Assembly: GCA_041658785.1 (NCBI GenBank)
Contig: JBAZZL010000002.1
Coordinates: 1,714 to 65,713, forward strand
DNA: 64,000 bases
Origin: Patescibacteria group bacterium
GTDB lineage: Bacteria; Patescibacteriota; Patescibacteriia; Magasanikbacterales; UBA922
Reading direction: 5' to 3'
A program made the translations under genes and the position numbers. Under the pieces are notes generated by a model. It saw nothing but the letters and a program-made list of their open reading frames with translations. It did no database searches and had not been told where the DNA came from. Below, in pieces: positions 844 to 50,404 of the stretch (positions within the stretch are counted from its first letter, which is position 1; each line of letters begins with the position of its first letter).

Positions 844-1497
844 ATGATCAAAACTCGACACATTTTATTTATCTTGCTTCCGGCAATTCTCATCGTGGCT
901 TTTGCCTTGTTTGTGCGCGCGCTTCAATACGAACCGCTGCAGCCAAAAAAAACAGAAGAAAAAGAAACGGTGGAACCAAAGACTGCTAAACTGCAAATAC
1001 CAATTTCCCCGGATGACCCGATTATGGGCGGCAAAAAAGCTCCCATCACTCTTATTGCTTTTGAAGATCTTGCCTGCGGACACTGCGCCGAACAAGACGC
1101 GATATTCAAAGAGTTGCTGGCAAAACATCCGAATAAAATAAAAATTATCTGGAAGCCTCTGCCGGTAATTTTTTTACCCTATCCATCAGGTACCGCTCAT
1201 AAATACGCGTTTTGCGCCAATAAACAAAATAAATTTGAAGAATTTAAAACTATCGCTTTCTCCAACCAAATGGAACTATCTCCAAACATACTAAGCGCGA
1301 TAGCGGAACAAATTAATCTAAATCCCGAAATATTGCAATCGTGCCTTGAGTCTGGCGAGGTTGCGTCATATTTAGAAACCACGAAACAGCTGGGAATAGC
1401 GCTGAATATTCAATCAGTCCCCGCGATATTTTTTAATAACGTCCAAATTGAAAACCAAACAACAGTTACTGGATGGAAAACTTTACTCCAATTATGA
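844..1497 (+). CDS. membrane-anchored DsbA-like thiol:disulfide oxidoreductase (thioredoxin fold)
   Basis: N-terminal TM helix. C-G-H-C active-site motif in DLACGHCAEQ. Size (217 aa) fits DsbA-like proteins. Confidence 0.6.
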   Translation: MIKTRHILFILLPAILIVAFALFVRALQYEPLQPKKTEEKETVEPKTAKLQIPISPDDPIMGGKKAPITLIAFEDLACGHCAEQDAIFKELLAKHPNKIKIIWKPLPVIFLPYPSGTAHKYAFCANKQNKFEEFKTIAFSNQMELSPNILSAIAEQINLNPEILQSCLESGEVASYLETTKQLGIALNIQSVPAIFFNNVQIENQTTVTGWKTLLQL

Positions 1498-32759: not shown

Positions 32760-33389
32760 TTATTTCGGCCAAATTTGTACCCAAATTTCTTTAGGAGAAA
32801 TATATTGATAATACAAACTCCAATCTTTCTTATTCTGAACTTTCCTGTTGATAATGCCGGAAACATAATCAGCTACTTGCAGTAAACTGTTAGCGGAGGA
32901 ACGCTGTTGTTTAAATTTCTTTATCGGCCTCTTATCTCTATTATTTAACTTTGATCTTAGATATTTTCCCAAACTTTTCCGGAAATCCGGCGAGCCGGAT
33001 CTGTCCAGCACCACGATTGCGTTGTCCAAATAAGGCAGAGCATTAGTAAAAGTCATCTGGCACGCATATTTGTAAAAAGATTCTTTGACGGAAAAACCCG
33101 GGCCGTACAGCTTGCTAGGATCTTTGTTTATCACGACGGAAAAATAAGTAAAATGATACGGTCGTATCGCTTGCAAAAAAGCTTGGCGCACCCGCCTGGA
33201 ATTATGCGTGAAATGAAATTCAAAATTTGCCGGATAACCAAGTTCTTTTCTCAATAACGCGACGCGCTTGTCGCAATCGCCGGCGATCTCATTATCCTGA
33301 AATAATATCATTGAAATTATAAAAAACTGACTTGAGCCCTCACCGACCTTTCGGCCAGTATCACCTGACTCATCGATAAATACGAGCAT
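32760..33389 (-). CDS. DUF3800 family protein
   Basis: Hallmark N-terminus MLVFIDESGD. Confidence 0.65.
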   Translation of the reverse strand: MLVFIDESGDTGRKVGEGSSQFFIISMILFQDNEIAGDCDKRVALLRKELGYPANFEFHFTHNSRRVRQAFLQAIRPYHFTYFSVVINKDPSKLYGPGFSVKESFYKYACQMTFTNALPYLDNAIVVLDRSGSPDFRKSLGKYLRSKLNNRDKRPIKKFKQQRSSANSLLQVADYVSGIINRKVQNKKDWSLYYQYISPKEIWVQIWPK

Positions 33390-35758: not shown

Positions 35759-36028
35759 TTATTTGTATAACTGGCTGTGCGTTCCGATTTCCACAAATTC
35801 CACCCATTCAATTTCCCCGCCTTCAAGTTCGCGATACAATGCCCGCCAATTCGCTGTAACATCTATACTTCTGAATCCCTCCCATTTTCCTTTAAGCGCG
35901 TGATTGCGAAGCGAACGATTAAATTGATCATGACGAAAAATCTCCACACTCCTTTCTAAAGCAAACTGTATCTTCTCCGGGGCTTTATAGAAATGTTTCA
36001 AAAATATTTTTGAATAAGTTATTTTCAT
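35759..36028 (-). CDS. YafQ/RelE-family type II toxin
   Basis: 89 aa. H..LKGKW.G.R..D motif pattern of YafQ/RelE. Confidence 0.65.
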   Translation of the reverse strand: MKITYSKIFLKHFYKAPEKIQFALERSVEIFRHDQFNRSLRNHALKGKWEGFRSIDVTANWRALYRELEGGEIEWVEFVEIGTHSQLYK

Positions 36029-36330
36029 ACCTTAACTTTTCCGGTCCTCACATCTTCCAAAAACTTAACCGCCTTATCCGAATCTTCAAATGTGTAATAA
36101 TCGCCGCGTTTCCTTGCTTCATCCGCTTCTTTTAGCGAAGCAACTAAATAATCGCTTGGCTCAAGTTCCTCCTCGTCCACGGCGCTAAAATAAACGCTTT
36201 TTGTGTTTAAAAAATGATGCAGATAAGCATTCAACAAACTGCTCAAACTCAACCCGATTTGTTCGGCGAGTTTCGCGGCTTTTTCTTTCACCTCCGGTTT
36301 GGTTTTGAAATTAATTTGGGCTGAACGCAT
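36025..36330 (-). CDS. DinJ/RelB-family antitoxin
   Basis: Start reassigned to MRSAQINF. INFKT.PEVKE.A..LA...G.SLS. ribbon-helix-helix antitoxin signature. 4-bp overlap with the toxin. Confidence 0.6.
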   Translation of the reverse strand: MRSAQINFKTKPEVKEKAAKLAEQIGLSLSSLLNAYLHHFLNTKSVYFSAVDEEELEPSDYLVASLKEADEARKRGDYYTFEDSDKAVKFLEDVRTGKVKV

Positions 36331-36764
36331 ATTATTATATAAAAAGTATAGAATAAGTGTATATTTACTATACACTTTATCTATAATTTTGTCAAGAGAC
36401 CGCTGGTTCAATCCACGCCATACTTATCATCCGCTTTTTGAAGCGTGATCATCCTTTTACCGGAACGCAAAATCAAGCGCGCCATTTTCACTCGCTTCTT
36501 TAATTCTTTGCTTCGCGATGCGCATTGATCTTCCAAAATTTCTTCAAATTCTTTTTTTAAAAAATCGGCTTGCCTCTTATCCATAAAGCATTCGCGTTTA
36601 GTTCTTTATTTTTATGTGGATTAGCGAATTGAGCCCGGCCGGGCGAAATTCGCGCCGGAGCACCGCCAGCGCGAAATTCGTCTGCGGACTCATTTCGCTA
36701 CTCCATCGGATCTGCCGCGGATTTTTTATTTTTCGTAATTTCGTACTCTTTCGTATTTCGTATC

Positions 36765-41211: not shown

Positions 41212-41504
41212 TATTGGTTCCCGCAGGTAGAAATTAAACCTGTGATGCTCGCGTTAATTCCGATAATGGCTCCGAAGGCTGAACGAAATCCAAACTTTTT
41301 TTCGCGAAAATCCGAACGTTGAATTTTGAAAAATTTTTAATCGACCTGCTCTATAATCACCACATAATTTTTGCCATATTTCTTGGCGCACTTGGGGCAA
41401 GTGTTTTTTCAATCAGCAGGCGCAAAATCTCTATACAATGAAAAAGCCTGCTGATAAATCATATCCAAGACACCCTCAATAACTGCGTAACTAAATCCAT
41501 TCCT

Positions 41505-41534
41505 CAACAACAACAGCAACAACAGCAACAACAA
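41505..41534. repeat. (CAA/CAG)n trinucleotide microsatellite
   Basis: caacaacaacagcaacaacagcaacaacaa. Confidence 0.7.
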
Positions 41535-41574
41535 TTTAACGTTCGCTCGGAGCCGCGACTTCAGCACTTCATTA

Positions 41575-41760
41575 CTTCTGCCAAAAATTTCTCGTCAAAT
41601 ATGGAAATCTCCGGTTTGGCTTTGTCCTTCATGGCAAAAATATAGATCACTCCTTCGGCGGAAATGCTCTGAGAAACTAATTTGCGAATGGCCGACTCAA
41701 TTTCCGGTCCAATCTCGCCGCCAGCAGTAACTATCCTTAACCTTCTAACATCTTTTGATT
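41575..41760 (-). pseudogene. possible relic of type I restriction enzyme HsdR C-terminal region
   Basis: Minus-frame translation ...IGPEIESAIRKLVSQSISAEGVIYIFAMKDKAKPEISIFDEKFLAEVMKC* resembles the HsdR C-terminal ..DDEFLAEV.. segment. Only about 60 codons survive, with no start. Confidence 0.3.
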
Positions 41761-42678
41761 ATACTTCGCCAATTCCAAACGAACTTTCCGCTCCATTTCT
41801 TTATGCGAAACATCGCCGGCACTACCCAAAATCTCTTTATCATTCAAAATCAAAAAGCCGTCAAGTTTTTTTATCCAGTCCTTCATATACATTACTCTTT
41901 GTTCCACGCTCTGCAATTCAGCGAAAGAAAGAAACTGTTCCACCAATAAATTTAATCGCTTTAACTCCAACTCCTCTAAATAATTTTTGGCGATTTCGGC
42001 CTGCTCGCGGGTGATAATTTCACCCTTCCAATTTGTTAAACCCAGATTATCTTTTCGGCTATCAACCCTGCTGTGGACAATTTCCGCCGCAGTTAAACCG
42101 GTAATCGCGTAATGAAATTTATTCTGCACAATAGCAAAGAATTGCTTGGCGTAATCCAATTTTGGATTATAATCCGCACTCAAAGCAAACACATCTTTCA
42201 CTTTTTGATAAAAATTGGCTTCGGAGGTTCTAATTTTGCGAATGCGCTCTTCCAATTCTTGAAAGTACGGCTTGGCCACTCGCCCGCTCTCCAAACGCTC
42301 ATCATCCATGACAAAACCCTTAATTATATACTCTTTCAACTTTTGGGTGGCCCAAATACGAAATTGCGTGCCACGCAAAGAATTGATCCGATATCCAACA
42401 GAAATTATCGCGTCCAAATTGTAGTGTTTAACAAGGTAATTTTTACCGTCGGCGGCAGTTACCGAGTATTCCTCGGCAACTGAATTTTCGCTAAGTTCGG
42501 CTTCTTTAAATACATTCTTCAAATGCAAACTGATATTATCGGCGCTACAATCAAAAAGCTCGGCCATTTGCTTTTGCGAAAGCCAAACGGTTTCATTTTC
42601 CATCTTTACTTCAATCTTTGTCTGCCCGTCTTCGGTGTTGTAGATGATGATTTGGTTGTTTTTATTTGGGGCGTGCAT
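41737..42678 (-). CDS. rhuM: RhuM-family protein (virulence/RM-associated DNA-binding protein)
   Basis: Characteristic N-terminus IIYNTEDGQTKIEVKMENETVWLSQKQMAELF. 313 aa. Confidence 0.7.
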   Translation of the reverse strand: MHAPNKNNQIIIYNTEDGQTKIEVKMENETVWLSQKQMAELFDCSADNISLHLKNVFKEAELSENSVAEEYSVTAADGKNYLVKHYNLDAIISVGYRINSLRGTQFRIWATQKLKEYIIKGFVMDDERLESGRVAKPYFQELEERIRKIRTSEANFYQKVKDVFALSADYNPKLDYAKQFFAIVQNKFHYAITGLTAAEIVHSRVDSRKDNLGLTNWKGEIITREQAEIAKNYLEELELKRLNLLVEQFLSFAELQSVEQRVMYMKDWIKKLDGFLILNDKEILGSAGDVSHKEMERKVRLELAKYNQKMLEG

Positions 42679-42743
42679 AAATCACTTCTTACTTTCAACG
42701 TCGACGGAATTTGTGCCAGCGTTAGCTAGTGCGCCGCTTAAAA

Positions 42744-43910
42744 TTATTTTGCCGTCCAATTTCCAGCTTCGTCAAAATTTTGTGATCGTTTGAAACCGCA
42801 AGCATTCCAAATTAGGTCAAACATCGGACGCAAAATATCTTTTGGCTCTGTATTGTATGATTCGATAATTGTTTCCGGCAATTGTAAAATATCTCGATCA
42901 ATTTTGTAATGATCATGATGCCAAAATATTTCGTCAACGCCCATTTCCCAATCTTTAACCCAAATCAGTGTCAAAAAAATAACAATCGGCATATTAACGC
43001 CAAGCTGTTTTGCTAAATTCAAATATTCCGCCAACGATTTTATCAACTCCAACTCATAGGTAAAACTTGGAATAATTTTTTTCTCTCTATCTGCTCTTAA
43101 TATTAAACCTTCAACAGCCTCAATAATTCCATTTCGGTATAACTGAATGTATGAATGGGATTTATCGTTTTTTCCACCAGAATAAGACAAAACGCCTTCA
43201 AGATTAATCCGATGGCTCAAGCCGGAAGCGTATATCGGCTGTAATTTTGCAGGTACATTTATTATCGGGTTCAAATCAATGCTATGATTCGGACTAAAGG
43301 ATCCTAATGGTATGAGATGTAAAACGATTTTACCGCCCTCGTAAAATGGAAGCGGTAAATTATCAGCAACAAGTTGGGCAATTCTTTCTACTTTGAATTT
43401 ATTTATTTGCTCGGTTAGTGTTTGAGAAAGATTAAAAGCATTTTTTAATTCGTTCGTATCCAGCGCGTATTTTCCGGCGGAATTTCTTGAATAAAATTTG
43501 TCATGTCCTTTGTAAATAACGCGGTGCGGTCCCGCCCAGCTTCTATTTATTCGGAATATAAAAACATTCTTTTTGTCGGAAACATTGACGGTTCGTGTCG
43601 CAAAAATAATTCTCGGCTCAATTCCGTCTCGAATAATGTTTTCATATTTTCTGATTTCCTCATCAACATTTTCTATTTCCACGCCATCAATACTTTTCGG
43701 ACTTCCGTTTTCTTCCGAAATGCCGAAAATCAAATCCCCGCCGGAAGCATTAGCAAAAGATGAAATATCAGCCAAAAATTCTTTTCTGTCTGCGTCGGAA
43801 TTACTCGGTAATAATTTTTTATATTCAATTGTTTTGCCTTCTAAAACAGCGTTGCTTCGCAACTGCTCTAAATCATTAAATTCAATTTTATCAAGATGTT
43901 TATTTATCAT
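42744..43910 (-). CDS. AlbA_2/Schlafen-like putative DNA-binding domain protein
   Basis: E..IEYKK....L...ISSFANASGGDLIFGI matches the AlbA_2 signature. Sits between rhuM and hsdS. Confidence 0.55.
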   Translation of the reverse strand: MINKHLDKIEFNDLEQLRSNAVLEGKTIEYKKLLPSNSDADRKEFLADISSFANASGGDLIFGISEENGSPKSIDGVEIENVDEEIRKYENIIRDGIEPRIIFATRTVNVSDKKNVFIFRINRSWAGPHRVIYKGHDKFYSRNSAGKYALDTNELKNAFNLSQTLTEQINKFKVERIAQLVADNLPLPFYEGGKIVLHLIPLGSFSPNHSIDLNPIINVPAKLQPIYASGLSHRINLEGVLSYSGGKNDKSHSYIQLYRNGIIEAVEGLILRADREKKIIPSFTYELELIKSLAEYLNLAKQLGVNMPIVIFLTLIWVKDWEMGVDEIFWHHDHYKIDRDILQLPETIIESYNTEPKDILRPMFDLIWNACGFKRSQNFDEAGNWTAK

Positions 43911-43914
43911 AAAA

Positions 43915-45276
43915 TTACCCTAAAATCATTTGTTCTATTTCTTTTTGCGCTCCGGCGACAGTGCTTTCCGCTTCTTGCCGCAAGCGTTTTACTTTTTTAT
44001 AAATTGTATTTACGCCAGCGATAATTTTTTCTTGTTTTTCAACGCTGGGCAATGGCACGACTAATTTTTTCAATGCGTCATAATCCAACGCTGGGCGCGT
44101 GCCACCCGTTGTGGAGCGGAAAGATAATTCACGACCAATTTTTGTATTGAAAAAAGACGCTACATATTCGGGCAATATCTTTGTTTTCCCCACTTCGTTT
44201 TGCAAGTGAAAACGGACAGAGTGCTGATTGATATTTCCCTCAAAATTATCTGGCACAACTGCAACGCTTCCAATTCTTCCCGTGATAGTAAAAATTAAAT
44301 CGTCTTTTTTCAACTGCGAACGCTTAAGCATTGTTTCGTGAATTTCTGGTTTGATAAATTTTACATCGTCAAGTTTTATTCCCATTTCCGTAATATTCTG
44401 TACTCGCAAGAATGGCACGCCGCCCTCGTCCGAATAATAATCACCCGTAACTTTTGGCGTTGCTCCACCGGACATATCGGCTATGGCTTGGCCAAGCGCA
44501 AAGTGTTTTTTATTTTTAATCTGCTCCAATAAACTACGCAGGTATGGTTTGTAAAATAAAGCGTCAATACGACCCTCAATTTCATCGCTCCAAATCTGAA
44601 ATACCCGCTCTGCCCCCCCCCGCGGCATATCTATACCAAGCTCGCCCAAAACAAAATCGTCAATTGAGGACAAAATTTTCAAAATTTCCGCTTGTTTCTT
44701 TTTCTTTTGTTCGTATGCTTCTTGAATTTTCTTGACGACTTCGTTTTGAACCGAAAGAGGCGGAATGGGAATATCAAAATTCTTTATTGTTTCAATTGTT
44801 ATATTTCCTTGAATTGCGCCGATTTTTTCGCGCTCAATCAATTTTCGGCTCGCTTCACTGTTTAGCCACGCGGAAATATATTGTTTGTTGATTTTGGTAT
44901 TAAGACAAAACTTAATCATAAAAGAGCCGAAGGCAAATCCTTCCGCCTCTTTCGGAACGACAACGACAATACCAACCGAGCCGCTTCTTGAAATAAGTAG
45001 GTCGCCCTCGTGAACAATCGCTTTTCCTACTTCTTTGCGTTGTTCTTCGGACAAATAAACAACATCGCCCACATCAATCCCGTCATTTTTCAAATTGAGA
45101 ATACGCAAAAACGGTATTCCAAAATCAACATAATCGTTTGCCGTAGAAAGTCCGTAGCGAATATCGGTAATAAAATCGCCGAGTTTTTGCGATTTATATT
45201 TCCCGTTTTGAATCGCTTTTTGAAGCTCGCGGATTGCCGGTAACCAATATTTCGCGTCAAGCCGTCCGCCGCTCAA
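43915..45276 (-). CDS. hsdS: type I (or IIB-like) restriction-modification specificity subunit HsdS, two target-recognition domains
   Basis: LLISRSGSVG and TITGRIGSVAVV TRD cores. Central and C-terminal conserved helices. TTG start. Confidence 0.8.
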   Translation of the reverse strand: MSGGRLDAKYWLPAIRELQKAIQNGKYKSQKLGDFITDIRYGLSTANDYVDFGIPFLRILNLKNDGIDVGDVVYLSEEQRKEVGKAIVHEGDLLISRSGSVGIVVVVPKEAEGFAFGSFMIKFCLNTKINKQYISAWLNSEASRKLIEREKIGAIQGNITIETIKNFDIPIPPLSVQNEVVKKIQEAYEQKKKKQAEILKILSSIDDFVLGELGIDMPRGGAERVFQIWSDEIEGRIDALFYKPYLRSLLEQIKNKKHFALGQAIADMSGGATPKVTGDYYSDEGGVPFLRVQNITEMGIKLDDVKFIKPEIHETMLKRSQLKKDDLIFTITGRIGSVAVVPDNFEGNINQHSVRFHLQNEVGKTKILPEYVASFFNTKIGRELSFRSTTGGTRPALDYDALKKLVVPLPSVEKQEKIIAGVNTIYKKVKRLRQEAESTVAGAQKEIEQMILG

Positions 45277-46426
45277 AACATCGCCGCTCCAAGTTGTAAA
45301 AATTTCGAGCGAAGCCGAGCTCTTTTTGCTTTCTCACTTCATCAAGAGCGTGCAAAAGAAATCCGCCCGAACCGCAAGCGGGGTCAAGCACAAGATCGTC
45401 ATTTTTTATATTCATCATCTTGACGGCGAAGCTCACAATTTCGCGCGGAGTAAAGTATTGTCCGCTTTTGCCCTTGAAAAAATCCTCCATAAACTGCTCA
45501 AAAGCAACGCCTTTTGTATCAAGATCGGTTTTATTGAGCGACACGCTTTGCAAGTGTTCAACGACGGTATAAAGCTCCTCTGGCTCGATTTTCAAACTTT
45601 CCTTAAACACTTCGGGGTCTTTTTCTTTCGCTTCAAGATAAATTTCGTTTATGCGCCGATAAACGCTTTCGGCTTTTTCGTGCGTCTTGATTTGAAAATC
45701 GTAATACTCGCCGGTTTTTCGTCCGCGCTTTTCGTCGCGAATTTTTACGAAAATGATTTTGCAAAGTTCGTCAAAAGCAACGGTTGGATTTCTTTTGCCA
45801 CCAGCCCAAAGCGTATTATGGGATTTTTCAAGGGCGCGTTTTAATTCTGATTTATCAAGCACTTTCAAATCCCAGTCCGGATCGCCTTTTTTGTAACGAA
45901 ACTCCTCAATCTTTCCGTAAGAAATAGGAATATCGGTAATGGTCGCTTTTTCCGGTTCTTTGTCGTTCCATTCGGCGGTTTCCATTGCTCGGCGAGTATT
46001 GCCCGCAACGCAAATCGCAAGCGGGGCGTGAAGCACGCGAGCGTTAGCGATTGCCTGTTTGGTGGCTTGCTCAAATTCCGCGTCGGAAATGCCGTCTTTT
46101 TTACACTCAACGACGATATAAGGTCTCTTTTTTGCGTCATCCTCATAAATAACTATGTCCGCGTAGCGTTCCGGCGTCCGGTCCGGCATCTCTATTTCAA
46201 GCTCAATCCGTTTTGCCGGATAGTGATATTTTTCAATCAGGTCAAAATAATATTCGGCGCGGACTTTTTCTTCGGGATCAGTAAAATTATATTTTTTACC
46301 AGAAGCCGAATATTTAATTTTACTGCCATCAAACACAAAGTACCCTCTGTTTTCACCAATTTCTAAATAATCATTAAAACTACTCGTGCCCCCATCTTGT
46401 TGTGGTTTATAGATTGTGTCAGTCAT
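45257..46426 (-). pseudogene. truncated RM subunit: N-terminal PD-(D/E)xK nuclease-like domain fused to an N6-adenine MTase that stops just after motif I
   Basis: D..IVIY...IVVECKK nuclease-like motif. MTase motif X QYFTPREIV and motif I LDPACGSGGFL are present. The ORF ends about 30 aa later, with no NPPF/NPPY motif IV, and overlaps hsdS. Confidence 0.55.
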
Positions 46427-46481
46427 ATTTTATTTATAATCCCAATTTTCCCCGTCAGCTTGCTGCGGGGTCGTCGTTTCA

Positions 46482-46733
46482 TTAATACACCTCCTGCCGA
46501 TGCCCAATTTTAACCACGATCACCAACAGCTCGTGTTTATAAATTTTATAAATAATTCGGTACGGCCAAACCCGCACGGAATATTCTCCGGCGTGCTCGC
46601 CTGTCAGCTTTTTACCCTGAAACGGATCTTGCCCCAATAATTTCAGCGCCAAAGCGACGCGGATTCGGTATCGGGAATCAATTCTGGCGAGATCTTTTTG
46701 CGCTTTTTTTGGGAGAACCACGGCGTACGCCAT
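46482..46733 (-). CDS. relE: RelE/StbE-family type II toxin (start at MAYAVV)
   Basis: YRIIYKIY..ELLVIVVKIGHRQEVY C-terminal signature. Confidence 0.7.
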   Translation of the reverse strand: MAYAVVLPKKAQKDLARIDSRYRIRVALALKLLGQDPFQGKKLTGEHAGEYSVRVWPYRIIYKIYKHELLVIVVKIGHRQEVY

Positions 46734-47037
46734 ACTTCTTTTTACCTTTATCGGCGATGAGAAAACCCTCTTTGGCCAGGTATTCGTCCAAAGTGATGTA
46801 ATCGCCTTTTTTATAATCCCTCTCCGCTTCTTCAATATCCTTTTTCAAATCCGGAAAGTCCTTCATCACCTCCAGCGTTTCTACCCACGATTCAAATTCT
46901 TCGGCCGACATCATTACCGCTTTGGGGCGGCCTTTTTCCGTCAGGGTATAATAAACCCCCGGCTTTTGCACTTCTTTGGCCAGGTCAAAAATTCTTTTTC
47001 TCGCTTCGGATATCGGTAAAGTATTTCTGGTATTCAT
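46678..47037 (-). CDS. Phd/YefM-family antitoxin; C-terminal ~20 codons overlap the toxin start
   Basis: Phd/YefM core VYYTLTEKGRPKAVMMSAEEFESWVETLEV. T8 homopolymer at 46703-46711 lies inside the 56-nt overlap. Confidence 0.6.
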   Translation of the reverse strand: MNTRNTLPISEARKRIFDLAKEVQKPGVYYTLTEKGRPKAVMMSAEEFESWVETLEVMKDFPDLKKDIEEAERDYKKGDYITLDEYLAKEGFLIADKGKKKYGVRRGSPKKSAKRSRQN

Positions 47038-47102
47038 AAAAGTTTTTAAGTATTTATATGTACATAATAATGTACGCTACAAATTTTGTCAAGCCGATAT
47101 TA

Positions 47103-47765
47103 TCAACAATGCCCCAGCTTTTTTAAACTGGCGTAAGAACCATTTGACACAATCACATGATCCACAAGCTCAATCCCCAAAATTTTCCCCGCTTCGATCA
47201 AACGTTTGGTAATCTTAATATCTTCTTCCGACGGTTCCGTCTCTCCGGAAGGATGATTGTGCGCCACAATCACTTGCGCGGCCAAATGCCGGACTGCCGG
47301 CTCAAATACTTCGCGCGGATGAACGAGATTGGCATTAAGCGAACCGACCGAAACGATTTCACGCTTGATTTCTTGATTTCTGGAATCCAAAAAGAAAATT
47401 ACGAAATGCTCTTTTTTATGATCACGGATATCCTTGAGTTCGTCCCAAACATCCTTTGGCGATAGAATCAAAACTGATTGTTTGTTTTGCAAATGACGGC
47501 GACCAAGTTCGTAGCAGGCGACGATTTCGCACGCTTTCGCGCTACCAAGACCGAATGTATTTTTTAATTCTTTAACCGAGGCCTTGGCCAAACCAACGCC
47601 ACTGAATTTCCTTAAAATCTTACTGGATAATTCCACGACATTTATGCCTTCGCTTCCGGTGCGTAAAAGAATCGCCAAAAGTTCGGAATCCGAAAGCCGC
47701 TCGGGACCGTATTTTTCCAGCTTCTCCCGCGGCCGATCAATTTTGGGTAAGTCCTTTATTTTCAT
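47103..47765 (-). CDS. radC: RadC-family JAB/MPN domain protein
   Basis: HNHPSG..PS..D JAMM motif. N-terminal HhH region. Confidence 0.85.
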   Translation of the reverse strand: MKIKDLPKIDRPREKLEKYGPERLSDSELLAILLRTGSEGINVVELSSKILRKFSGVGLAKASVKELKNTFGLGSAKACEIVACYELGRRHLQNKQSVLILSPKDVWDELKDIRDHKKEHFVIFFLDSRNQEIKREIVSVGSLNANLVHPREVFEPAVRHLAAQVIVAHNHPSGETEPSEEDIKITKRLIEAGKILGIELVDHVIVSNGSYASLKKLGHC

Positions 47766-47800
47766 ACTTATTTATTTGGCGATTTCCTTTAACATCTATT

Positions 47801-48496
47801 TTATTTTTCACTTTCTGCTCTGGCTTTGAACAAAAAAATGGTTTCTGATTTTAATTTCGCACGCGCCCAATCTTTCTGTGGTTCGGATAATGACTCCCCT
47901 AAACCGACCAATAAATTGCGATCCGCCATTTTTTCAATCTGATCAACGCATTTTTGCAACGCTTCTTTGAAAGAAACACCGGATCGCCTTTTAACTATTT
48001 CCTTGTTAATCGGCCAATTATTTTTCAAAAAGTACCAGACATCATAAATATCGCGGCTAGTCTTTCCGATACGCTCTAACATCGCCATTAACTTATGGGC
48101 AAACATATCCTCGGGAATCATAACCAACATAGAAATACCCAATAGGGTCTTTACTTCAAACTTTGATCCGAAATCCCGTCTGTTAACTTCTATTTTGATG
48201 TTTTGTGATTTAGTGTCATACGAGATGACAATTAGCAAATTGAATTTTTTGATTTTTGAATCTATGACCTTGCCATAGCTCTCCGCAATTTTTTGGATTT
48301 TCTCAAAGACCATTTGCTCTTTGCTTTCATCCAATAAATCAAAATCCAAATCAAACGAATCTCTATTCAATCCATAGAACAAGTGAGCGGCCGTTCCGCC
48401 TTTGAATCCTAAATATGGAGAGATGGAAGTATTGGAATAAATATCCTTTAGGATTTGCAATAATATGTTTTTATGCTTGGAGTAATCAACGGTCAT
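47801..48496 (-). CDS. AbiEii/AbiGii-family nucleotidyltransferase toxin
   Basis: GGTAAHLFYGLNR.S.DLD nucleotidyltransferase motif of the AbiEii (DUF1814-like) family. Confidence 0.65.
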   Translation of the reverse strand: MTVDYSKHKNILLQILKDIYSNTSISPYLGFKGGTAAHLFYGLNRDSFDLDFDLLDESKEQMVFEKIQKIAESYGKVIDSKIKKFNLLIVISYDTKSQNIKIEVNRRDFGSKFEVKTLLGISMLVMIPEDMFAHKLMAMLERIGKTSRDIYDVWYFLKNNWPINKEIVKRRSGVSFKEALQKCVDQIEKMADRNLLVGLGESLSEPQKDWARAKLKSETIFLFKARAESEK

Positions 48497-49092
48497 ACGT
48501 TTGAATTTTTATAGTTTTTAAAATAATCATTAACCCTCTTTTCCATTTTTTTGTTATTGTAGATCGGCAAAATTTGAAACACCTTGTCCCAATTCAAGCC
48601 GTTTAAATTATCAAAATGATAGTCTTTGCTTATATATATCCTGTCCAAAAACGCTCTCTCTTTTGTAGCAACGGCTATGCCATTTTGATGTTCGATGCCA
48701 ATAGTGTTACTCAATACGTAATCCTTCATGCGGATTAAGGAAATTTTTTGTTCGGGAATTTCAATCTCTCGGGTCACATACGATGCGACAAAAATAGAAT
48801 CGTAGTACTGAAAATTAATTCCGGCACGGGTCAATACCGTTTCAAAGCTGATGTATGAGGGAGTATAAATGCGCGTCACCAATTCAAAACGATCATAATT
48901 TTTATCTTTGGCATATATGCCGCGCCGGACCCTGATTAATTTTCCAGCGTTAACATATTTAATTAATCGGCTGGCTACGGTCTGCTCTTTTTCTTCTCCC
49001 CACAACAAAGCCACGTCTTTTGTCGAAAAGACGGCCCGAGGAGATCGCAATAAGACCTCTAAATATTCACCTTTGGTGGGTTTTTTATCCAT
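48493..49092 (-). CDS. AbiEi-family antitoxin/transcriptional regulator (type IV TA)
   Basis: N-terminal wHTH. 4-bp overlap with the AbiEii gene. Size and order typical of AbiEi-AbiEii. Confidence 0.55.
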   Translation of the reverse strand: MDKKPTKGEYLEVLLRSPRAVFSTKDVALLWGEEKEQTVASRLIKYVNAGKLIRVRRGIYAKDKNYDRFELVTRIYTPSYISFETVLTRAGINFQYYDSIFVASYVTREIEIPEQKISLIRMKDYVLSNTIGIEHQNGIAVATKERAFLDRIYISKDYHFDNLNGLNWDKVFQILPIYNNKKMEKRVNDYFKNYKNSNV

Positions 49093-49316
49093 ATATAGAC
49101 TGGAATAAGCCTTAAAGGTTTGTTCCAGTTAAATTATATGCTAAAATGCAAATAAGCGCAAGATCCTTTGGATAATAAGCAAATTGCTACTAAGACTCGA
49201 ACCGCGTTTTGCTTTCGCAAAAGGTGGCGATTGAACCGAAAAAATCTTGGCAAATACTATACAATCTGCCTGCCGACCCCGCCGTGGCGGGGGAGGAAAA
49301 CTCGCAACATCCAATT

Positions 49317-49372
49317 TGGCTCCCTCTGTAGGACTCGAACCTACAACATCTACGTTAACAGTCCCGATAAAA
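49317..49372 (-). other. tRNA 3'-half fragment (anticodon-arm remnant + T-arm + acceptor 3' strand + CCA), directly abutting tRNA-Asn
   Basis: Minus-strand read ..GGGACTGTTAACGTAGATGTTGTAGGTTCGAGTCCTACAGAGGGAGCCA. No matching 5' acceptor/D-arm. Confidence 0.4.
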
Positions 49373-49447
49373 GCTCCGAGAGCAGGGTTCGAACCTGCGA
49401 CATCCGCGTTAACAGCGCGGCGTTCTACCACTGAACTATCTCGGAGC
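49373..49447 (-). tRNA. tRNA-Asn (GTT)
   Basis: Minus strand GCTCCGAGATAGTTCAGTGGTAGAACGCCGCGCTGTTAACGCGGATGTCGCAGGTTCGAACCCTGCTCTCGGAGC. Confidence 0.8.
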
Positions 49448-49491
49448 GCTTATCGGGATTCTACCTTTGAACTACAGGGGAATAATATGCA

Positions 49492-49513
49492 AAACCCGCC
49501 TTTTCAGCGGGTT
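49492..49513. terminator. bidirectional terminator hairpin between tRNA-Asn and recO
   Basis: AAACCCGCC-TTTTCAG-CGGGTTT with flanking T/A runs. Confidence 0.5.
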
Positions 49514-49609
49514 TGTTAGTTTTGGATAAAATGCAAAACTACCCGCTGATTAGCTGTTTATTATTGTTATTATTATTGTGGAGCAAGTATTGCATATAAA
49601 AACAATCTA

Positions 49610-50404
49610 TCATGAATTAAGCCTCTTGTCAAATTTCTGCCAGTCAAAAATTTTTCTCTCACTGTGAAAAACCGTGTACTCTTGCACTAAATTATGCAAT
49701 GAATCCGCCTCATCCCCCTTAAATTTCAAATTATTAATTAACTGCCAATCCCCCTCCAAAAGCAATCGTAAATTCTTCGCCTGCTCCGCGTTACAATTCA
49801 AAATCCGTTCCCCCAATTTTTCTTTTTTCTCCCGGCAAACTTTACAAATAACCCCTCCCCCAGCCGGATACAAATCCGCTATTTCTTCAATCCCGCACAC
49901 CACACAGATCTTTAGCTCCGGCGCAAAACCTAAATAATTTAGTAATTTAATGATAAAACCATCCACCAGTACAGGCGCATTGCAATGCGCCTCAACTAAC
50001 GCATTGCAATGCGTCTCAACTAACGCATTGCAATGCGTCTCAACTGAAGCAATAAATTCCAACCAACTTTTCAACAAATCAAAAATCCTCTCCTCCCTTT
50101 CTCCTGTATGCGTTAATTTATCAACCACAGAAACCAGATAACTGGCAGCTAAACTTTTCTCAGCATTTTTTCTAACGCTTGAAAAAAACTCTACCGGCTG
50201 TACTTTGGTCAGATGATCTATTTCCTTGCCTTTTTCCACCACGATATCAACCAAAGAAAACGGCTCAAGATGAGCCGAATTTTTGCTGGTTATTTTTTTC
50301 ACTCCGCGCGCGAGCAGTTCAAGCTTGCCTTGATCTTTCGTGAAAAGGGAAATGATCTGGTCTGACTCGCGGAAATCTCGCCGGGATAATATAATTGAAA
50401 GCAT
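49610..50404 (-). CDS. recO: DNA repair protein RecO with 24-nt x3 in-frame tandem repeat
   Basis: N-terminal OB fold. CxxC...CxxC zinc motif. Repeat VETHCNAL x3 at 49970-50045. Confidence 0.8.
   Translation of the reverse strand: MLSIILSRRDFRESDQIISLFTKDQGKLELLARGVKKITSKNSAHLEPFSLVDIVVEKGKEIDHLTKVQPVEFFSSVRKNAEKSLAASYLVSVVDKLTHTGEREERIFDLLKSWLEFIASVETHCNALVETHCNALVEAHCNAPVLVDGFIIKLLNYLGFAPELKICVVCGIEEIADLYPAGGGVICKVCREKKEKLGERILNCNAEQAKNLRLLLEGDWQLINNLKFKGDEADSLHNLVQEYTVFHSERKIFDWQKFDKRLNS

What the first reader, a model, noticed from the sequence alone, without database searches (positions are those of the whole stretch)
41505..49520. Decayed multi-system defence island abutting tRNA-Asn
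Within 8 kb on one strand sit several defence-type genes:
- a possible hsdR C-terminal relic;
- RhuM;
- an AlbA_2/Schlafen-like gene;
- an intact two-TRD HsdS;
- a truncated nuclease-methyltransferase fusion;
- a RelE/Phd pair;
- RadC;
- an AbiEi/AbiEii abortive-infection pair.

The block ends at tRNA-Asn, which is followed by a tRNA 3'-half fragment. That is the classic footprint of site-specific integration into a tRNA gene.

No integrase is present, so this looks like an old, eroded island. The restriction function is apparently lost, while specificity, Schlafen/RhuM and toxin-antitoxin modules are retained.
Basis: partly seen in the sequence, partly recalled or inferred. Interest (0 to 1): 0.6.

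Follow-up and report, generated by a model that had tools for sequence, protein, structure and literature searches.

The report
Decayed defence island beside nested tRNA-Asn
An ordinary, partly broken 8-kb cluster of anti-phage genes fills a variable slot next to tRNA-Asn in a Patescibacteria genome, but the "tRNA fragment" beside it is not an integration scar: the working tRNA-Asn gene sits inside an older, dead tRNA-Asn gene.

Summary
Profile searches support every gene call: RhuM, AlbA_2/Schlafen, two-TRD HsdS, a truncated nuclease-methyltransferase, Phd/RelE, RadC, AbiEi/AbiEii and a roughly 55-residue HsdR C-terminal relic.

The block is non-core. The closest relative that carries both flanks (L010) has recO, tRNA-Asn, 5.9 kb of unrelated genes, then DUF4349. 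No integrase or intact hsdR was found among the ORFs of at least 120 aa tested outside the block.

- The methyltransferase and S genes are a BsaXI-like (Type IIB) two-gene system. A deletion of about 0.7 kb removed methyltransferase motif IV and the hsdS start codon.
- The hsdR relic comes from a separate Type I system.
- RadC travels with this R-M family.

The "classic integration footprint" is not supported.
- The 3' fragment has an unreported 5' partner. Together they are the resident tRNA-Asn gene.
- That gene is split in its anticodon arm by a 94-97-nt cassette: an intact tRNA-Asn on a 13-bp leader/trailer stalk.
- The same layout, with compensatory stalk changes, occurs in an unrelated contig (L015) between core genes.
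- tRNA-in-tRNA genes also turned up in viral contigs.

The island is ordinary. The nested tRNA is the unusual part, and how it arose is unresolved.

The parts
41409..41737 (-). Relic of the C-terminal region of a Type I HsdR. The frame at 41737-41560 is followed by a frameshift, a (TTG/CTG)n run at about 41535-41505, and a tail ORF at 41567-41409.
   Evidence: PF11867 T1RH-like_C: E 3.7e-11, 43.4 bits (cut-off 26.8), profile positions 117-162 of 329. The tail ORF has no family hit.
41737..42678 (-). RhuM-family gene (PADLOC candidate PDC-S05), full length at 313 aa.
   Evidence: Pfam PF13310, E 1e-97. PADLOC PDLC04853, E 1.2e-128, covering profile positions 4-310 of 336.
42744..43910 (-). AlbA_2/Schlafen-domain gene, 388 aa. 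The domain covers residues 24-150; the C-terminal roughly 230 aa are unassigned.
   Evidence: PF04326, E 2.8e-17. No PADLOC, NCBIfam or PDB sequence match.
43915..45312 (-). Specificity (S) gene with two TRDs. It has lost its native ATG and about 9 codons. The longest ORF starts at an internal TTG at 45276.
   Evidence: PF01420 matched in two stretches and PADLOC Specificity_I, E 3.6e-57. Comparison of the N-terminus with the S protein of L006. The TRD2 half is 82% identical at nucleotide level to L009.
45312..45327 (.). Junction of a deletion of about 0.7 kb. It removed codons of roughly 369-599 of the methyltransferase and the start of the S gene.
   Evidence: Nucleotide homology to the intact loci L006, L007 and L009 stops at 45327/45326. 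Homology in the S-gene frame resumes at about 45312.
45257..46426 (-). Truncated RM subunit. The N-terminal HSDR_N_2 (PD-(D/E)xK-type) domain is intact. The methyltransferase part ends just after motif I, so motif IV (NPPF) is missing.
   Evidence: Pfam and PADLOC. It is 91% identical over residues 5-369 to the 599-aa P0121. P0121 has NPPF at about residue 447. The best solved relative of P0121 is RM.BsaXI, 8w0p, E 6e-39.
46482..46733 (-). RelE/ParE-family toxin, 83 aa counted from the ATG at 46733.
   Evidence: PF05016, E 6e-12. TIGR02385, above its cut-off. The same gene call was made in L002.
46678..47037 (-). Phd/YefM-family antitoxin, 119 aa. It overlaps the toxin gene by 56 nt.
   Evidence: PF02604, E 8e-15. 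TIGR01552.
47103..47765 (-). RadC (UPF0758_N plus a JAB domain). It is linked with this RM family in other genomes.
   Evidence: PF04002, E 5e-42. NF000642, 238 bits against a cut-off of 180. RadC lies directly upstream of the RM gene in L077-L080 and close to it in L006.
47801..49092 (-). AbiE pair: AbiEi (48493-49092) and AbiEii (47801-48496). The two genes overlap by 4 nt and both are full length.
   Evidence: PADLOC AbiEi PDLC02255, E 1.5e-58 (profile positions 3-185 of 186). PADLOC AbiEii PDLC02324, E 2.3e-75 (positions 2-224 of 231). PF08843.
49317..49361 (-). 3' part of the resident ('outer') tRNA-Asn gene, from the anticodon loop CTGTTAA to the encoded CCA. It is decayed, with two mismatches in the acceptor stem.
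   Evidence: Sequence reading and direct-repeat family D2. The T arm is identical to that of the tRNA-Asn in L001. Its 3' flank matches the tRNA flank of L010 at 12 of 14 positions. ARAGORN calls tRNA-Asn once the 5 missing nt are put back.
49362..49458 (-). Inserted cassette: leader 49458-49446, intact tRNA-Asn(GTT) 49445-49374, trailer 49373-49362. Leader and trailer extend the acceptor stem by 13 bp.
   Evidence: ARAGORN and Rfam, 73.5 bits. Inverted repeat I5. Fold. Against the L015 cassette, 5 of the 13 stalk pairs changed on both sides and 97% of cells are paired. The region is identical in the independent assembly L002.
49458..49481 (-). 5' half of the resident ('outer') tRNA-Asn gene (acceptor strand plus D arm). 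It lies at the native distance from the recO terminator.
   Evidence: Sequence. It matches the L001 tRNA-Asn 5' half at 22 of 25 positions and the L015 outer half at 23 of 25. The BLAST alignment to L001 runs from recO through this half.

Best explanation
The region 41.4-49.3 kb is a non-core, mosaic cluster of defence and addiction genes. It fills a variable slot between the tRNA-Asn locus and a conserved DUF4349 gene in a Patescibacteria genome related to Magasanikbacteria. It was assembled from at least three horizontally acquired pieces and is partly dead.

(1) The RadC / RM / S module.
- It is a BsaXI-like (Type IIB-like) two-gene restriction-modification system.
- One protein carries both an N-terminal PD-(D/E)xK nuclease domain and a gamma-class N6-adenine methyltransferase. 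It is guided by a two-TRD S subunit, and no HsdR is needed.
- Here a deletion of about 0.7 kb removed the catalytic half of the methyltransferase and the start of the S gene. Restriction and modification are therefore both lost (shown).
- A Phd/RelE pair lies between RadC and the RM gene.

(2) RhuM, an AlbA_2/Schlafen-domain gene and a 55-residue HsdR C-terminal relic.
- These are what remains of a Type I locus of the common 'hsdS - embedded genes - hsdR' layout (inferred).

(3) A complete AbiEi/AbiEii pair.
- By family knowledge this is a type IV toxin-antitoxin and abortive-infection module.
- Together with Phd/RelE, RhuM and the AlbA_2 gene, it is one of the full-length ORFs that could still act (function inferred, not shown).

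How the block arrived cannot be read from the sequence. There is no integrase and no border repeat.

The tRNA pieces at the border are not attachment-site scars of the island.
- The resident tRNA-Asn gene was split in its anticodon arm by a 94-97-nt cassette, and 4-5 nt of the resident gene were lost.
- The cassette consists of an intact tRNA-Asn carried on a 13-bp leader/trailer stalk.
- The inserted copy now supplies tRNA-Asn, presumably released by RNase P and 3' processing, while the outer halves decay (inferred).
For: Gene identities.

The block is non-core:
- L010 carries RecO (74%), then tRNA-Asn, then MFS, a YbaK-like gene, Fur and Zip, then DUF4349 (65%), with no defence gene in between.
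- In L001 and L005, tRNA-Asn is followed by yet other genes.
- The left-flank synteny (AspRS, RsmF, AsnRS, ATP-grasp, desulfoferrodoxin, DUF4349) lies on a different contig of the L001 genome.

Horizontal origin:
- The RM gene is 85-91% identical at protein level to genes in other phyla.
- It is 90.5% identical at nucleotide level to a candidate division TA06 genome.

The RM system is a two-gene system:
- Intact loci are [HTH] - variable gene - RM (about 590 aa) - S, with no HsdR.
- The best PDB relative is RM.BsaXI.

The deletion.

No integrase or HsdR among 30 other ORFs of at least 120 aa in the window.

Nested tRNA:
- Sequence and fold.
- The outer halves lie in the native flanks.
- ARAGORN calls the outer gene tRNA-Asn once the missing nucleotides are restored.
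- The region is identical in the independent assembly L002, which otherwise differs from the window by 17 SNPs.
- There is a second instance in a different genomic context, with compensatory stalk changes.
Against: - Only one relative (L010) has both flanks on one contig, and it is distant (74% and 65% protein identity). The time and order of the gains and losses are therefore unknown.
- Base composition does not set the block apart from its flanks: 36-45% G+C against 40-46%.
- An old integrase-mediated insertion that used the outer tRNA's 3' end as attB cannot be excluded, because the island starts within about 15 nt of that tRNA's CCA.
- The independent contig L002 stops at 45344, 17 nt before the deletion junction. 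The junction and everything to its left rest on one assembly, and an intact RM allele could coexist in the population.
- Nothing here shows that any of the intact genes is expressed or active.
Confidence: 0.75

Rival explanations
1. First reader's model. The whole 8-kb block is one integrative element that entered tRNA-Asn by site-specific recombination. The adjacent 3' half is the displaced attachment-site copy, and the integrase was lost later.
For: - The island begins about 15 nt after the CCA of the outer tRNA-Asn.
- tRNA genes are the usual targets of integrative islands (established knowledge).
- The 3' part starts exactly at the anticodon loop, where one class of integrases crosses over.
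- A related RM locus, L009, lies beside tRNA-Ala together with integrase fragments.
Against: - There is no tRNA-derived repeat at the distal border and none anywhere else in the window.
- The fragment lies between the tRNA and the island, not beyond the island.
- A 5' half lies on the other side of the intact tRNA, which this model does not predict.
- The same nested layout exists in L015 between core genes.
- The block is a mosaic whose modules have different relatives.
- No integrase was found among the tested ORFs of the 64-kb window.
Confidence: 0.15
2. The composite tRNA (5' half - stalk - tRNA - stalk - 3' part) and/or the truncated RM gene are metagenome assembly artefacts, for example chimeras of co-occurring strains.
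For: - The window comes from a metagenome-assembled genome. An identical DUF4349 protein is on record from an NCBI Patescibacteria MAG contig of 75.9 kb.
- L002 breaks 17 nt from the RM junction.
- The RM family is a highly conserved sequence shared between genomes.
Against: - The composite tRNA region is base-for-base identical in a second assembly, from another ENA analysis, that differs from the window at 17 SNPs and one 9-nt indel elsewhere.
- An unrelated JGI contig has the same architecture with a different stalk sequence.
- The leader and trailer sequences belong to neither tRNA allele nor to the native flanks of the relatives, so joining two alleles cannot produce them.
- Nucleotide identity of 87-90% between RM genes is too low to share long k-mers.
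Confidence: 0.05
3. The block is ancestral core genome of this lineage, and the relatives lost it. On this reading there is no island at all.
For: Relatives are distant (62-74% RecO identity), so loss in them cannot be formally excluded.
Against: - Three relatives carry three different gene sets after tRNA-Asn.
- The RM gene is about 90% identical at nucleotide level to one in another phylum, whereas core genes are about 70% identical even between the relatives.
- The content is entirely of the defence and toxin-antitoxin type.
Confidence: 0.05

Closest known systems
Defence islands and genomic islands beside tRNA genes, including Type I R-M loci with embedded genes such as RhuM between hsdS and hsdR
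   Same: Several defence and toxin-antitoxin modules are clustered in a variable slot next to a tRNA gene. They are of foreign origin and partly pseudogenised. RhuM and an AlbA_2 gene lie between an S gene and an hsdR remnant.
   Different: There is no integrase and there are no border repeats. The tRNA fragments at the border belong to a nested tRNA, not to att sites. The host is a small-genome Patescibacteria bacterium.
Type IIB restriction-modification enzymes of the BsaXI/BcgI kind (a bifunctional RM subunit plus an S subunit)
   Same: Intact homologues are two-gene units. The RM protein is about 590-600 aa, with an N-terminal nuclease-type domain and a gamma-class methyltransferase, followed by a two-TRD S gene that overlaps it. 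The best solved relative is RM.BsaXI.
   Different: PADLOC and NCBIfam label the family as a Type I M subunit or as MADS MAD2/MAD5-like, with the NCBIfam scores below cut-off. The cleavage behaviour of the family is untested. The copy in the window lacks motif IV and the start of the S gene.
AbiE (AbiEi/AbiEii) type IV toxin-antitoxin and abortive-infection system
   Same: Two overlapping genes in the antitoxin-toxin order. Both match PADLOC profiles over their full length.
   Different: Pfam finds no AbiEi domain, and the NCBIfam AbiEi score is below its cut-off. Function was not tested.
Disrupted tRNA genes left by mobile elements. Examples: the Caldiarchaeum subterraneum tRNA-Thr locus (PMC3293823) and tRNA 3' fragments at attR of integrative elements
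   Same: A fragment of the original tRNA gene lies next to a new, complete tRNA of the same identity, and the break is in the anticodon arm.
   Different: In Caldiarchaeum a 1.8-kb recombinase-encoding element separates the fragment from the new tRNA, and only a 5' fragment is seen there. Here both halves directly flank a cassette of under 100 nt with no protein gene, and the cassette has a 13-bp stalk.
Introns in tRNA anticodon loops (bacterial group I introns; archaeal BHB introns) and the split tRNAs of Nanoarchaeum, which have complementary leader sequences
   Same: The insertion is in the anticodon arm. The sequence after the 5' half is complementary to the sequence before the 3' half.
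   Different: The insert is too short for a group I intron and is itself a tRNA. The outer gene lacks 4-5 nt (window) or 5 nt (L015), so splicing cannot restore it. The outer gene shows decay. No splicing endonuclease is implied.

Membership tests
tRNA-targeting integrative genomic island | A tyrosine or serine integrase gene at the tRNA-proximal end | tested here: not met
   Pfam scans of the island ORFs and of 30 other ORFs of at least 120 aa in the window found no integrase or recombinase.
tRNA-targeting integrative genomic island | A direct repeat of the tRNA 3' segment at the distal border (attR) | tested here: not met
   The T-arm pattern allowed 3 mismatches and found only the adjacent fragment. 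The repeat search over 40-50 kb found only the copy next to the tRNA.
tRNA-targeting integrative genomic island | Absent from the same site in related genomes | tested here: met
   L010, L001 and L005 have other genes after tRNA-Asn. L010 has both flanks on one contig.
Type I restriction-modification system | An intact HsdR (helicase plus nuclease) subunit | tested here: not met
   Only a fragment of about 55 residues matching PF11867 positions 117-162 of 329 remains. No HsdR was found among the other ORFs tested in the window.
Type I restriction-modification system | An HsdM with methyltransferase motifs I and IV | tested here: not met
   Homology to full-length relatives stops at residue 368/369, after motif I. 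NPPF lies at about residue 447 in P0121.
Type I restriction-modification system | An HsdS with two target-recognition domains and conserved regions | tested here: met
   Two PF01420 stretches, and the central and C-terminal conserved regions are 92% identical at nucleotide level to L006. However, the native start and about 9 codons are deleted.
Type IIB (BsaXI/BcgI-like) restriction-modification system | One polypeptide carrying both a nuclease domain and a methyltransferase, working with a separate S subunit and without HsdR | tested here: inconclusive
   Intact homologues have HSDR_N_2 plus N6_Mtase in one protein of about 590 aa, followed by S, with no HsdR nearby. The best PDB match is RM.BsaXI, E 6e-39. 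Cleavage on both sides of the site is not testable here. The window copy is truncated.
AbiE abortive-infection / type IV toxin-antitoxin system | An AbiEi antitoxin gene directly upstream of an AbiEii nucleotidyltransferase gene | tested here: met
   PADLOC AbiEi, E 1.5e-58, and AbiEii, E 2.3e-75, both over the full profile. PF08843. The genes overlap by 4 nt.
AbiE abortive-infection / type IV toxin-antitoxin system | Toxicity of AbiEii neutralised by AbiEi, and protection against phage | not testable with these tools
   Needs an experiment.
Phd/YefM - RelE/ParE type II toxin-antitoxin system | A small antitoxin gene followed by a small toxin gene of these families | tested here: met
   PF02604, E 8e-15, and PF05016, E 6e-12. 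TIGR01552 and TIGR02385 score above their cut-offs. The 56-nt overlap between the genes is unusually long.
RhuM family (PADLOC candidate PDC-S05) | A full-length match to the family profile | tested here: met
   PF13310, residues 66-309 against profile positions 1-247 of 252, E 1e-97. PDLC04853, E 1.2e-128.
Schlafen / AlbA_2 proteins | An AlbA_2 (SLFN N-terminal) domain | tested here: met
   PF04326, E 2.8e-17, residues 24-150. The rest of the protein matches nothing, and it matches no PADLOC defence model.
Intron-containing tRNA gene (an insert that can be spliced out) | Removing the insert restores a complete tRNA | tested here: not met
   In the window and in L015, 4-5 nt (window) or 5 nt (L015) of the anticodon stem and loop are missing. 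ARAGORN calls the outer gene only after these nucleotides are added back in silico. By contrast, the viral examples L017 and L026 are restored simply by deleting the insert.
MITE-like non-autonomous transposon | Terminal inverted repeats plus a target-site duplication, in several copies per genome | tested here: inconclusive
   13-nt terminal inverted repeats are present. There is no target duplication but a 4-5-nt target loss. No other copy of the repeat exists in the 64-kb window. The whole genome was not available.

The most novel reading that the evidence does not exclude
The intact tRNA-Asn is the cargo of a small mobile or copy-in cassette.
- The cassette is 94-97 nt: a tRNA on a 13-bp stalk with conserved TCCC...GC / GC...GGGA ends.
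- It inserts into the anticodon arm of a resident tRNA-Asn gene, kills that gene and replaces its function.
- It has done so at least twice in unrelated bacterial lineages.
- It belongs to a wider, apparently undescribed class of tRNA genes nested inside tRNA genes, which also occurs in phage genomes. In some phage cases the outer tRNA stays restorable.

Mechanisms that remain possible:
- a non-autonomous element with terminal inverted repeats;
- spread of the whole composite by homologous recombination through the outer halves;
- an RNA-level event, in which a tRNA cut in its anticodon loop is ligated to a (pre-)tRNA and the product is copied back into DNA.
Probability: 0.4. Interest if true: 0.7.

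Novelty: new member of a known kind. Interest (0 to 1): 0.4.

Why it matters
The island adds one more example of the accretion and decay of defence genes at a tRNA-adjacent hotspot, this time in a small-genome Patescibacteria bacterium. It also shows that an R-M gene about 90% identical at nucleotide level has moved between phyla.

The practical lesson is that a tRNA fragment beside a tRNA is not by itself proof of integrase-mediated insertion.

The nested tRNA-Asn would matter more if confirmed as a recurrent process. It would be a way in which an essential, single-copy tRNA gene is replaced in place. It would also be a bacterial and phage counterpart to the disrupted tRNA genes of archaea, which feature in arguments about how tRNA introns and split tRNAs arose.

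Tried and rejected
- Distal att repeat. I searched the window for the T-arm of the fragment (up to 3 mismatches) and ran a repeat search over 40-50 kb. Only the adjacent copy was found.
- Possible third, decayed tRNA fragment at about 49215-49185 (AACGCGGTTCGAGTC). Rfam at E up to 1 did not report it, so I treat it as chance.
- The 18-of-19 inverted match between 42571-42589 and 49205-49223. One arm is a local GAAA-loop hairpin, and I judged the match to be chance.
- Splicing of the outer tRNA. Rejected because nucleotides are missing.
- Group I intron. The insert is too short, and there is no Rfam hit.
- Other copies of the stalk repeat in the window. None beyond chance.
- Stalks or half fragments at the other two tRNAs of the window. 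None.
- Viral scans for the exact inner tRNA and for the 3' junction. Both returned nothing.
- First viral hit, L014. It is an ordinary phage tRNA cluster.
- L021 in the script output. It is a false positive: the acceptor pairs with the next tRNA.
- Literature searches for nested, embedded or interrupted tRNA genes. They found only archaeal, eukaryotic and organellar cases.
- Contigs L003, L004 and L016 of close RecO relatives. They end before the tRNA and gave no information.
- The genome contigs and metagenome-contig scans were each limited to one, so no broader census of the nested layout could be made.

Full report
**1. What is in the interval**

- RhuM, 41737-42678: PF13310, E 1e-97; PADLOC candidate PDC-S05, E 1e-128.
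- An AlbA_2/Schlafen-domain protein, 42744-43910: PF04326, E 3e-17. The remaining roughly 230 residues match nothing, including PADLOC and PDB sequences.
- A two-TRD specificity gene, ORF 43915-45276.
- A protein with HSDR_N_2 and the first part of N6_Mtase, 45257-46426. It covers only positions 36-384 of a 670-position MTase_I profile.
- RelE/ParE, 46482-46733, and Phd, 46678-47037.
- RadC, 47103-47765.
- AbiEii, 47801-48496, and AbiEi, 48493-49092. Both match their PADLOC profiles over the full length, at E 2e-75 and 1.5e-58.
- The 'possible hsdR relic' is real. One frame of 41737-41560 matches the Type I HsdR C-terminal family PF11867 at E 3.7e-11, above Pfam's cut-off, over profile positions 117-162 of 329. 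It is followed by a frameshift, a (TTG/CTG)n run and a short tail ORF ending at 41409.

**2. The restriction-modification part**

The truncated methyltransferase belongs to a very widespread family of 590-600 residues. Its members are 85-91% identical to the window copy across Patescibacteria, candidate division TA06 and Bacteroidota records.

In three intact loci the layout is HTH regulator, a variable gene, the RM gene, then an S gene of 470-490 residues that overlaps the RM gene. No HsdR helicase is nearby. The best solved relative of the intact homologue P0121 is RM.BsaXI, a Type IIB enzyme (8w0p, E 6e-39). Classical HsdM proteins score far lower. I therefore read the pair as a BsaXI-like two-gene system that needs no HsdR.

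In the window:
- Nucleotide homology to L006, L007 and L009 stops at 45327, which is residue 368, just after motif I.
- Motif IV (NPPF, at about residue 447 in P0121) is missing.
- In the S-gene frame, homology resumes at about 45312, roughly residue 10 of the L006 S protein. A stop codon lies at 45336-45334, and the first possible start is an internal TTG at 45276.
- One deletion of about 0.7 kb therefore removed the catalytic half of the methyltransferase and the start of hsdS.

The same family is independently broken by a 1-nt frameshift at nearly the same place in another lineage, L077-L080. In that lineage RadC lies directly upstream of the RM gene, and it lies close to the RM gene in L006. 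RadC is therefore part of this module, and the Phd/RelE pair is an insertion between RadC and the RM gene.

The HsdR relic, RhuM and the AlbA_2 gene are best read as debris of a separate Type I locus. That is an inference from the common 'hsdS - embedded gene - hsdR' layout, which I take from general knowledge.

**3. Is it an island?**

The window is from a Patescibacteria genome whose RecO and DUF4349 relatives are annotated as Magasanikbacteria. Four observations bear on the question.

- The decisive comparison is L010, a 9.4-kb JGI contig. It carries RecO (74% identical), tRNA-Asn, and then an MFS transporter, a YbaK-like gene, Fur, Zip and some unassigned ORFs. DUF4349 (65% identical) follows in the same convergent orientation as in the window. 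The same two flanks therefore enclose 5.9 kb of quite different genes.
- In L001, tRNA-Asn is followed by ORFs that I read as Fur-like and ZIP-like, matching the Pfam FUR and Zip calls in L010. In L005 it is followed by an unrelated ORF.
- The left-flank synteny (AspRS, RsmF, AsnRS, ATP-grasp, desulfoferrodoxin, DUF4349) lies on another contig of the L001 genome.
- Core genes are about 70% identical at nucleotide level between these relatives. The RM gene is 90.5% identical, and half of hsdS 82% identical, to a TA06 genome.

So the slot after tRNA-Asn is a variable region, and the defence block is foreign and mosaic. Its base composition does not stand out.

Pfam scans of 30 further ORFs of at least 120 aa across the 64 kb found only housekeeping genes plus a DUF3800 and a RelB-like ORF. 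There was no integrase, recombinase or HsdR.

**4. The tRNA border**

Read on the minus strand, the region runs as follows.

| Element | Coordinates | Sequence |
|---|---|---|
| recO terminator | 49516-49493 | |
| spacer | 9 nt | |
| 5' half of a tRNA-Asn gene | 49481-49458 | TCCCCTGTAGTTCAAAGGTAGAAT |
| leader (its first T is also the last base of the 5' half) | 49458-49446 | TCCCGATAAGCGC |
| intact tRNA-Asn(GTT) | 49445-49374 | |
| trailer | 49373-49362 | CTTTTATCGGGA |
| 3' part of a tRNA-Asn gene | 49361-49317 | CTGTTAACGTAGATGTTGTAGGTTCGAGTCCTACAGAGGGAGCCA |

The leader, paired with the discriminator base plus the trailer, forms 13 pairs with one mismatch. This prolongs the acceptor stem of the intact tRNA.

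The two outer pieces are the halves of one gene that sits in the native position.
- The 5' half lies where the tRNA starts in L001, L005 and L010, and it has the same acceptor strand as the L001 tRNA.
- The 3' part has the same T arm as L001.
- Its downstream flank GCCAAATTGGATGTT matches GCCAAAATGGATTTT of L010 at 12 of 14 positions beyond the discriminator.
- With the 5 missing nucleotides of the anticodon stem put back, ARAGORN calls it tRNA-Asn.
- It cannot be restored by removing the insert, and two of its acceptor pairs are broken. It is a dead gene.

The inner tRNA is closest to the native tRNA-Asn of L005: 24 of 25 and 36 of 39 compared positions.

The whole composite is identical in L002. 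That is an independent assembly of the same species, which differs from the window by 17 substitutions and one 9-nt indel elsewhere. This argues against an assembly artefact.

**5. A second instance, and relatives**

One metagenome scan used a pattern requiring a D-arm end followed within 5-25 nt by the start of this type of tRNA-Asn. It returned a single contig, L015.

In L015, between TrpRS and an ABC-permease gene, the same layout is found:
- an outer tRNA-Asn 5' half running to nucleotide 29;
- a 13-nt leader, TCCCTCACTCTGC;
- an intact tRNA-Asn;
- a trailer, CAGAATGAGGGA;
- an outer 3' part starting at U35 and ending in CCA.

Five nucleotides of the outer gene are missing, and the universally conserved G53 is mutated.

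The two 97-nt cassettes align without gaps. The stalk ends are conserved (TCCC...GC and GC...GGGA). The seven middle positions all differ, yet they still pair. Of the 13 stalk pairs, 5 changed on both sides, 6 are invariant, and 2 have one unpaired cell each. Overall 97% of cells are paired, against 40-50% when the partner columns are slid. With only two sequences this is suggestive rather than statistical proof.

Because L015 has no island beside the nested tRNA, the tRNA pieces in the window say nothing about how the island arrived.

Looser pattern scans of viral contigs gave further tRNA-in-tRNA genes:
- L017: a complete tRNA-Asn with CCA lies between nucleotides 36 and 37 of a tRNA-Lys(UUU). 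Deleting the insert restores a tRNA that ARAGORN calls.
- L026: tRNA-Pro plus 12 nt lie inside the anticodon loop of a tRNA-Lys.
- L059, L061 and L076: a tRNA lies in the middle of another tRNA's anticodon loop.
- L028: a tRNA-Thr is flanked by a decayed 5' half and a 3' part, as in the window, but without a stalk.

Five literature searches found no description of a tRNA gene nested in a tRNA gene in bacteria or phages. The nearest case is the Caldiarchaeum tRNA-Thr locus, where a 5' fragment lies 1.8 kb upstream of a new tRNA-Thr with a recombinase element in between (PMC3293823). The library covers only open-access papers and preprints, so the absence is not conclusive.

**6. Mechanism**

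*Shown*
- The gene content.
- The RM deletion.
- The non-core status of the block.
- The nested arrangement, and its recurrence.

*Inferred*
- AbiE, Phd/RelE, RhuM and the AlbA_2 gene are the only potentially active parts.
- The inner tRNA is the functional tRNA-Asn. It would be released from a transcript that starts at or upstream of the outer 5' half. A promoter-like site lies at 49632-49604 and a terminator-like hairpin at 49270-49249.

*Unresolved*
How the cassette got in. Three facts constrain the answer:
- the loss of 4-5 target nucleotides, with no target duplication, argues against a classical DDE transposon;
- the insertion points differ between the two cases, nucleotides 26/27 to 32 in the window against 29 to 35 in L015, which argues against precise homing from one donor allele;
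- the terminal inverted repeats that covary fit either a helix selected at RNA level or the ends of an element.

Three mechanisms remain open:
- a small non-autonomous element;
- spread of the whole composite by recombination through the outer halves. The two outer genes are slightly more alike than the window's is to L001: 23/25 and 33/39 against 22/25 and 31/39;
- an RNA-level ligation of a precursor tRNA into a tRNA cut in its anticodon loop, followed by copying into DNA.

**7. Verdict**

- The interpretation 'decayed multi-system defence island next to tRNA-Asn' is supported.
- The interpretation 'classic integration footprint' is not.
- The island is an ordinary new member of a known kind.
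- The nested tRNA-Asn is the feature that deserves follow-up.

**Caveats**
- Relatives are distant.
- The RM junction and everything to its left rest on one assembly. L002 ends at 45344, 17 nt before the junction.
- No expression or function data exist.

Noticed in passing
window 49482-49632 (minus strand); L001 10755-10902; L005 1200-1347; L010 8782-8925: The recO / tRNA-Asn spacer is conserved at nucleotide level in four relatives. It holds a promoter-like site (TTGACA-17-TAGATT). It also holds a long hairpin (AGCGGGTAGTTTTG...CAAAACTAAC.AACCCGCT) whose 3' arm is also the 5' arm of the terminator CCCGCTGAAAAGGCGGGTTTT. The two hairpins exclude each other, so this looks like an attenuator directly upstream of tRNA-Asn. 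No Rfam family matches, and only 2 compensatory pairs were seen in 6 sequences.
   Followed up: partly
L017 6127-6170; L026 8225-8267; L028 5759-5789; L059 1685-1725; L061 8113-8153; L076 1299-1339 (IMG/VR contigs): Complete tRNA genes sit inside the anticodon loop or arm of another tRNA gene in viral contigs. In L017 and L026, deleting the insert restores a tRNA-Lys(UUU). That raises the possibility of RNase P / RNase Z release followed by ligation of the outer halves.
   Followed up: partly
L019, L020, L022-L024, L027, L033-L035 (mostly giant-virus GVMAG contigs): A recurring arrangement: a tRNA 5' half with anticodon-loop sequence CTTATG is followed by a second 5' half with CTTTTA, an intron-like insert, and a single 3' half whose acceptor strand can pair with either 5' half.
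   Followed up: no
window 45344 (end of L002) against the deletion junction at 45327: The independent contig L002 of the same species stops 17 nt before the RM deletion junction. The assembly graph may branch there, for example because intact and deleted RM alleles coexist.
   Followed up: no
L077-L080 (for example L079 3000-4821); L006 1376-6546: The same RM family is split by a 1-nt frameshift at about residue 361 in another Patescibacteria lineage. RadC lies directly upstream of the RM gene there and close to it in L006. This suggests a conserved RadC - RM - S module that is pseudogenised repeatedly.
   Followed up: partly
window 45327-46357 and 43915-44681, against L009 (candidate division TA06, MWDQ01000152): The RM gene is 90.5% identical, and the TRD2 half of hsdS 82% identical, at nucleotide level to a genome of another phylum. 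TRD1 is unrelated. This indicates recent cross-phylum transfer with TRD shuffling.
   Followed up: partly
window 41505-41535: A (TTG/CTG)n microsatellite-like run of about 30 nt lies inside the hsdR relic.
   Followed up: no
window 32760-33389 and 36025-36411: Two further accessory-type ORFs lie among core genes on the left flank: a DUF3800 protein and a RelB-antitoxin-like protein. No partner toxin was looked for.
   Followed up: no
window 49185-49225 (minus strand): The sequence AACGCGGTTCGAGTC resembles the 3' anticodon-stem strand of a tRNA-Asn joined directly to a T loop. It could be a third, heavily deleted tRNA fragment. It falls below any Rfam threshold and I treat it as chance.
   Followed up: partly
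window 1473-3929: An 818-aa ORF has a T4SS_pilin domain and a weak Peptidase_M23 match, at the far left of the window.
   Followed up: no
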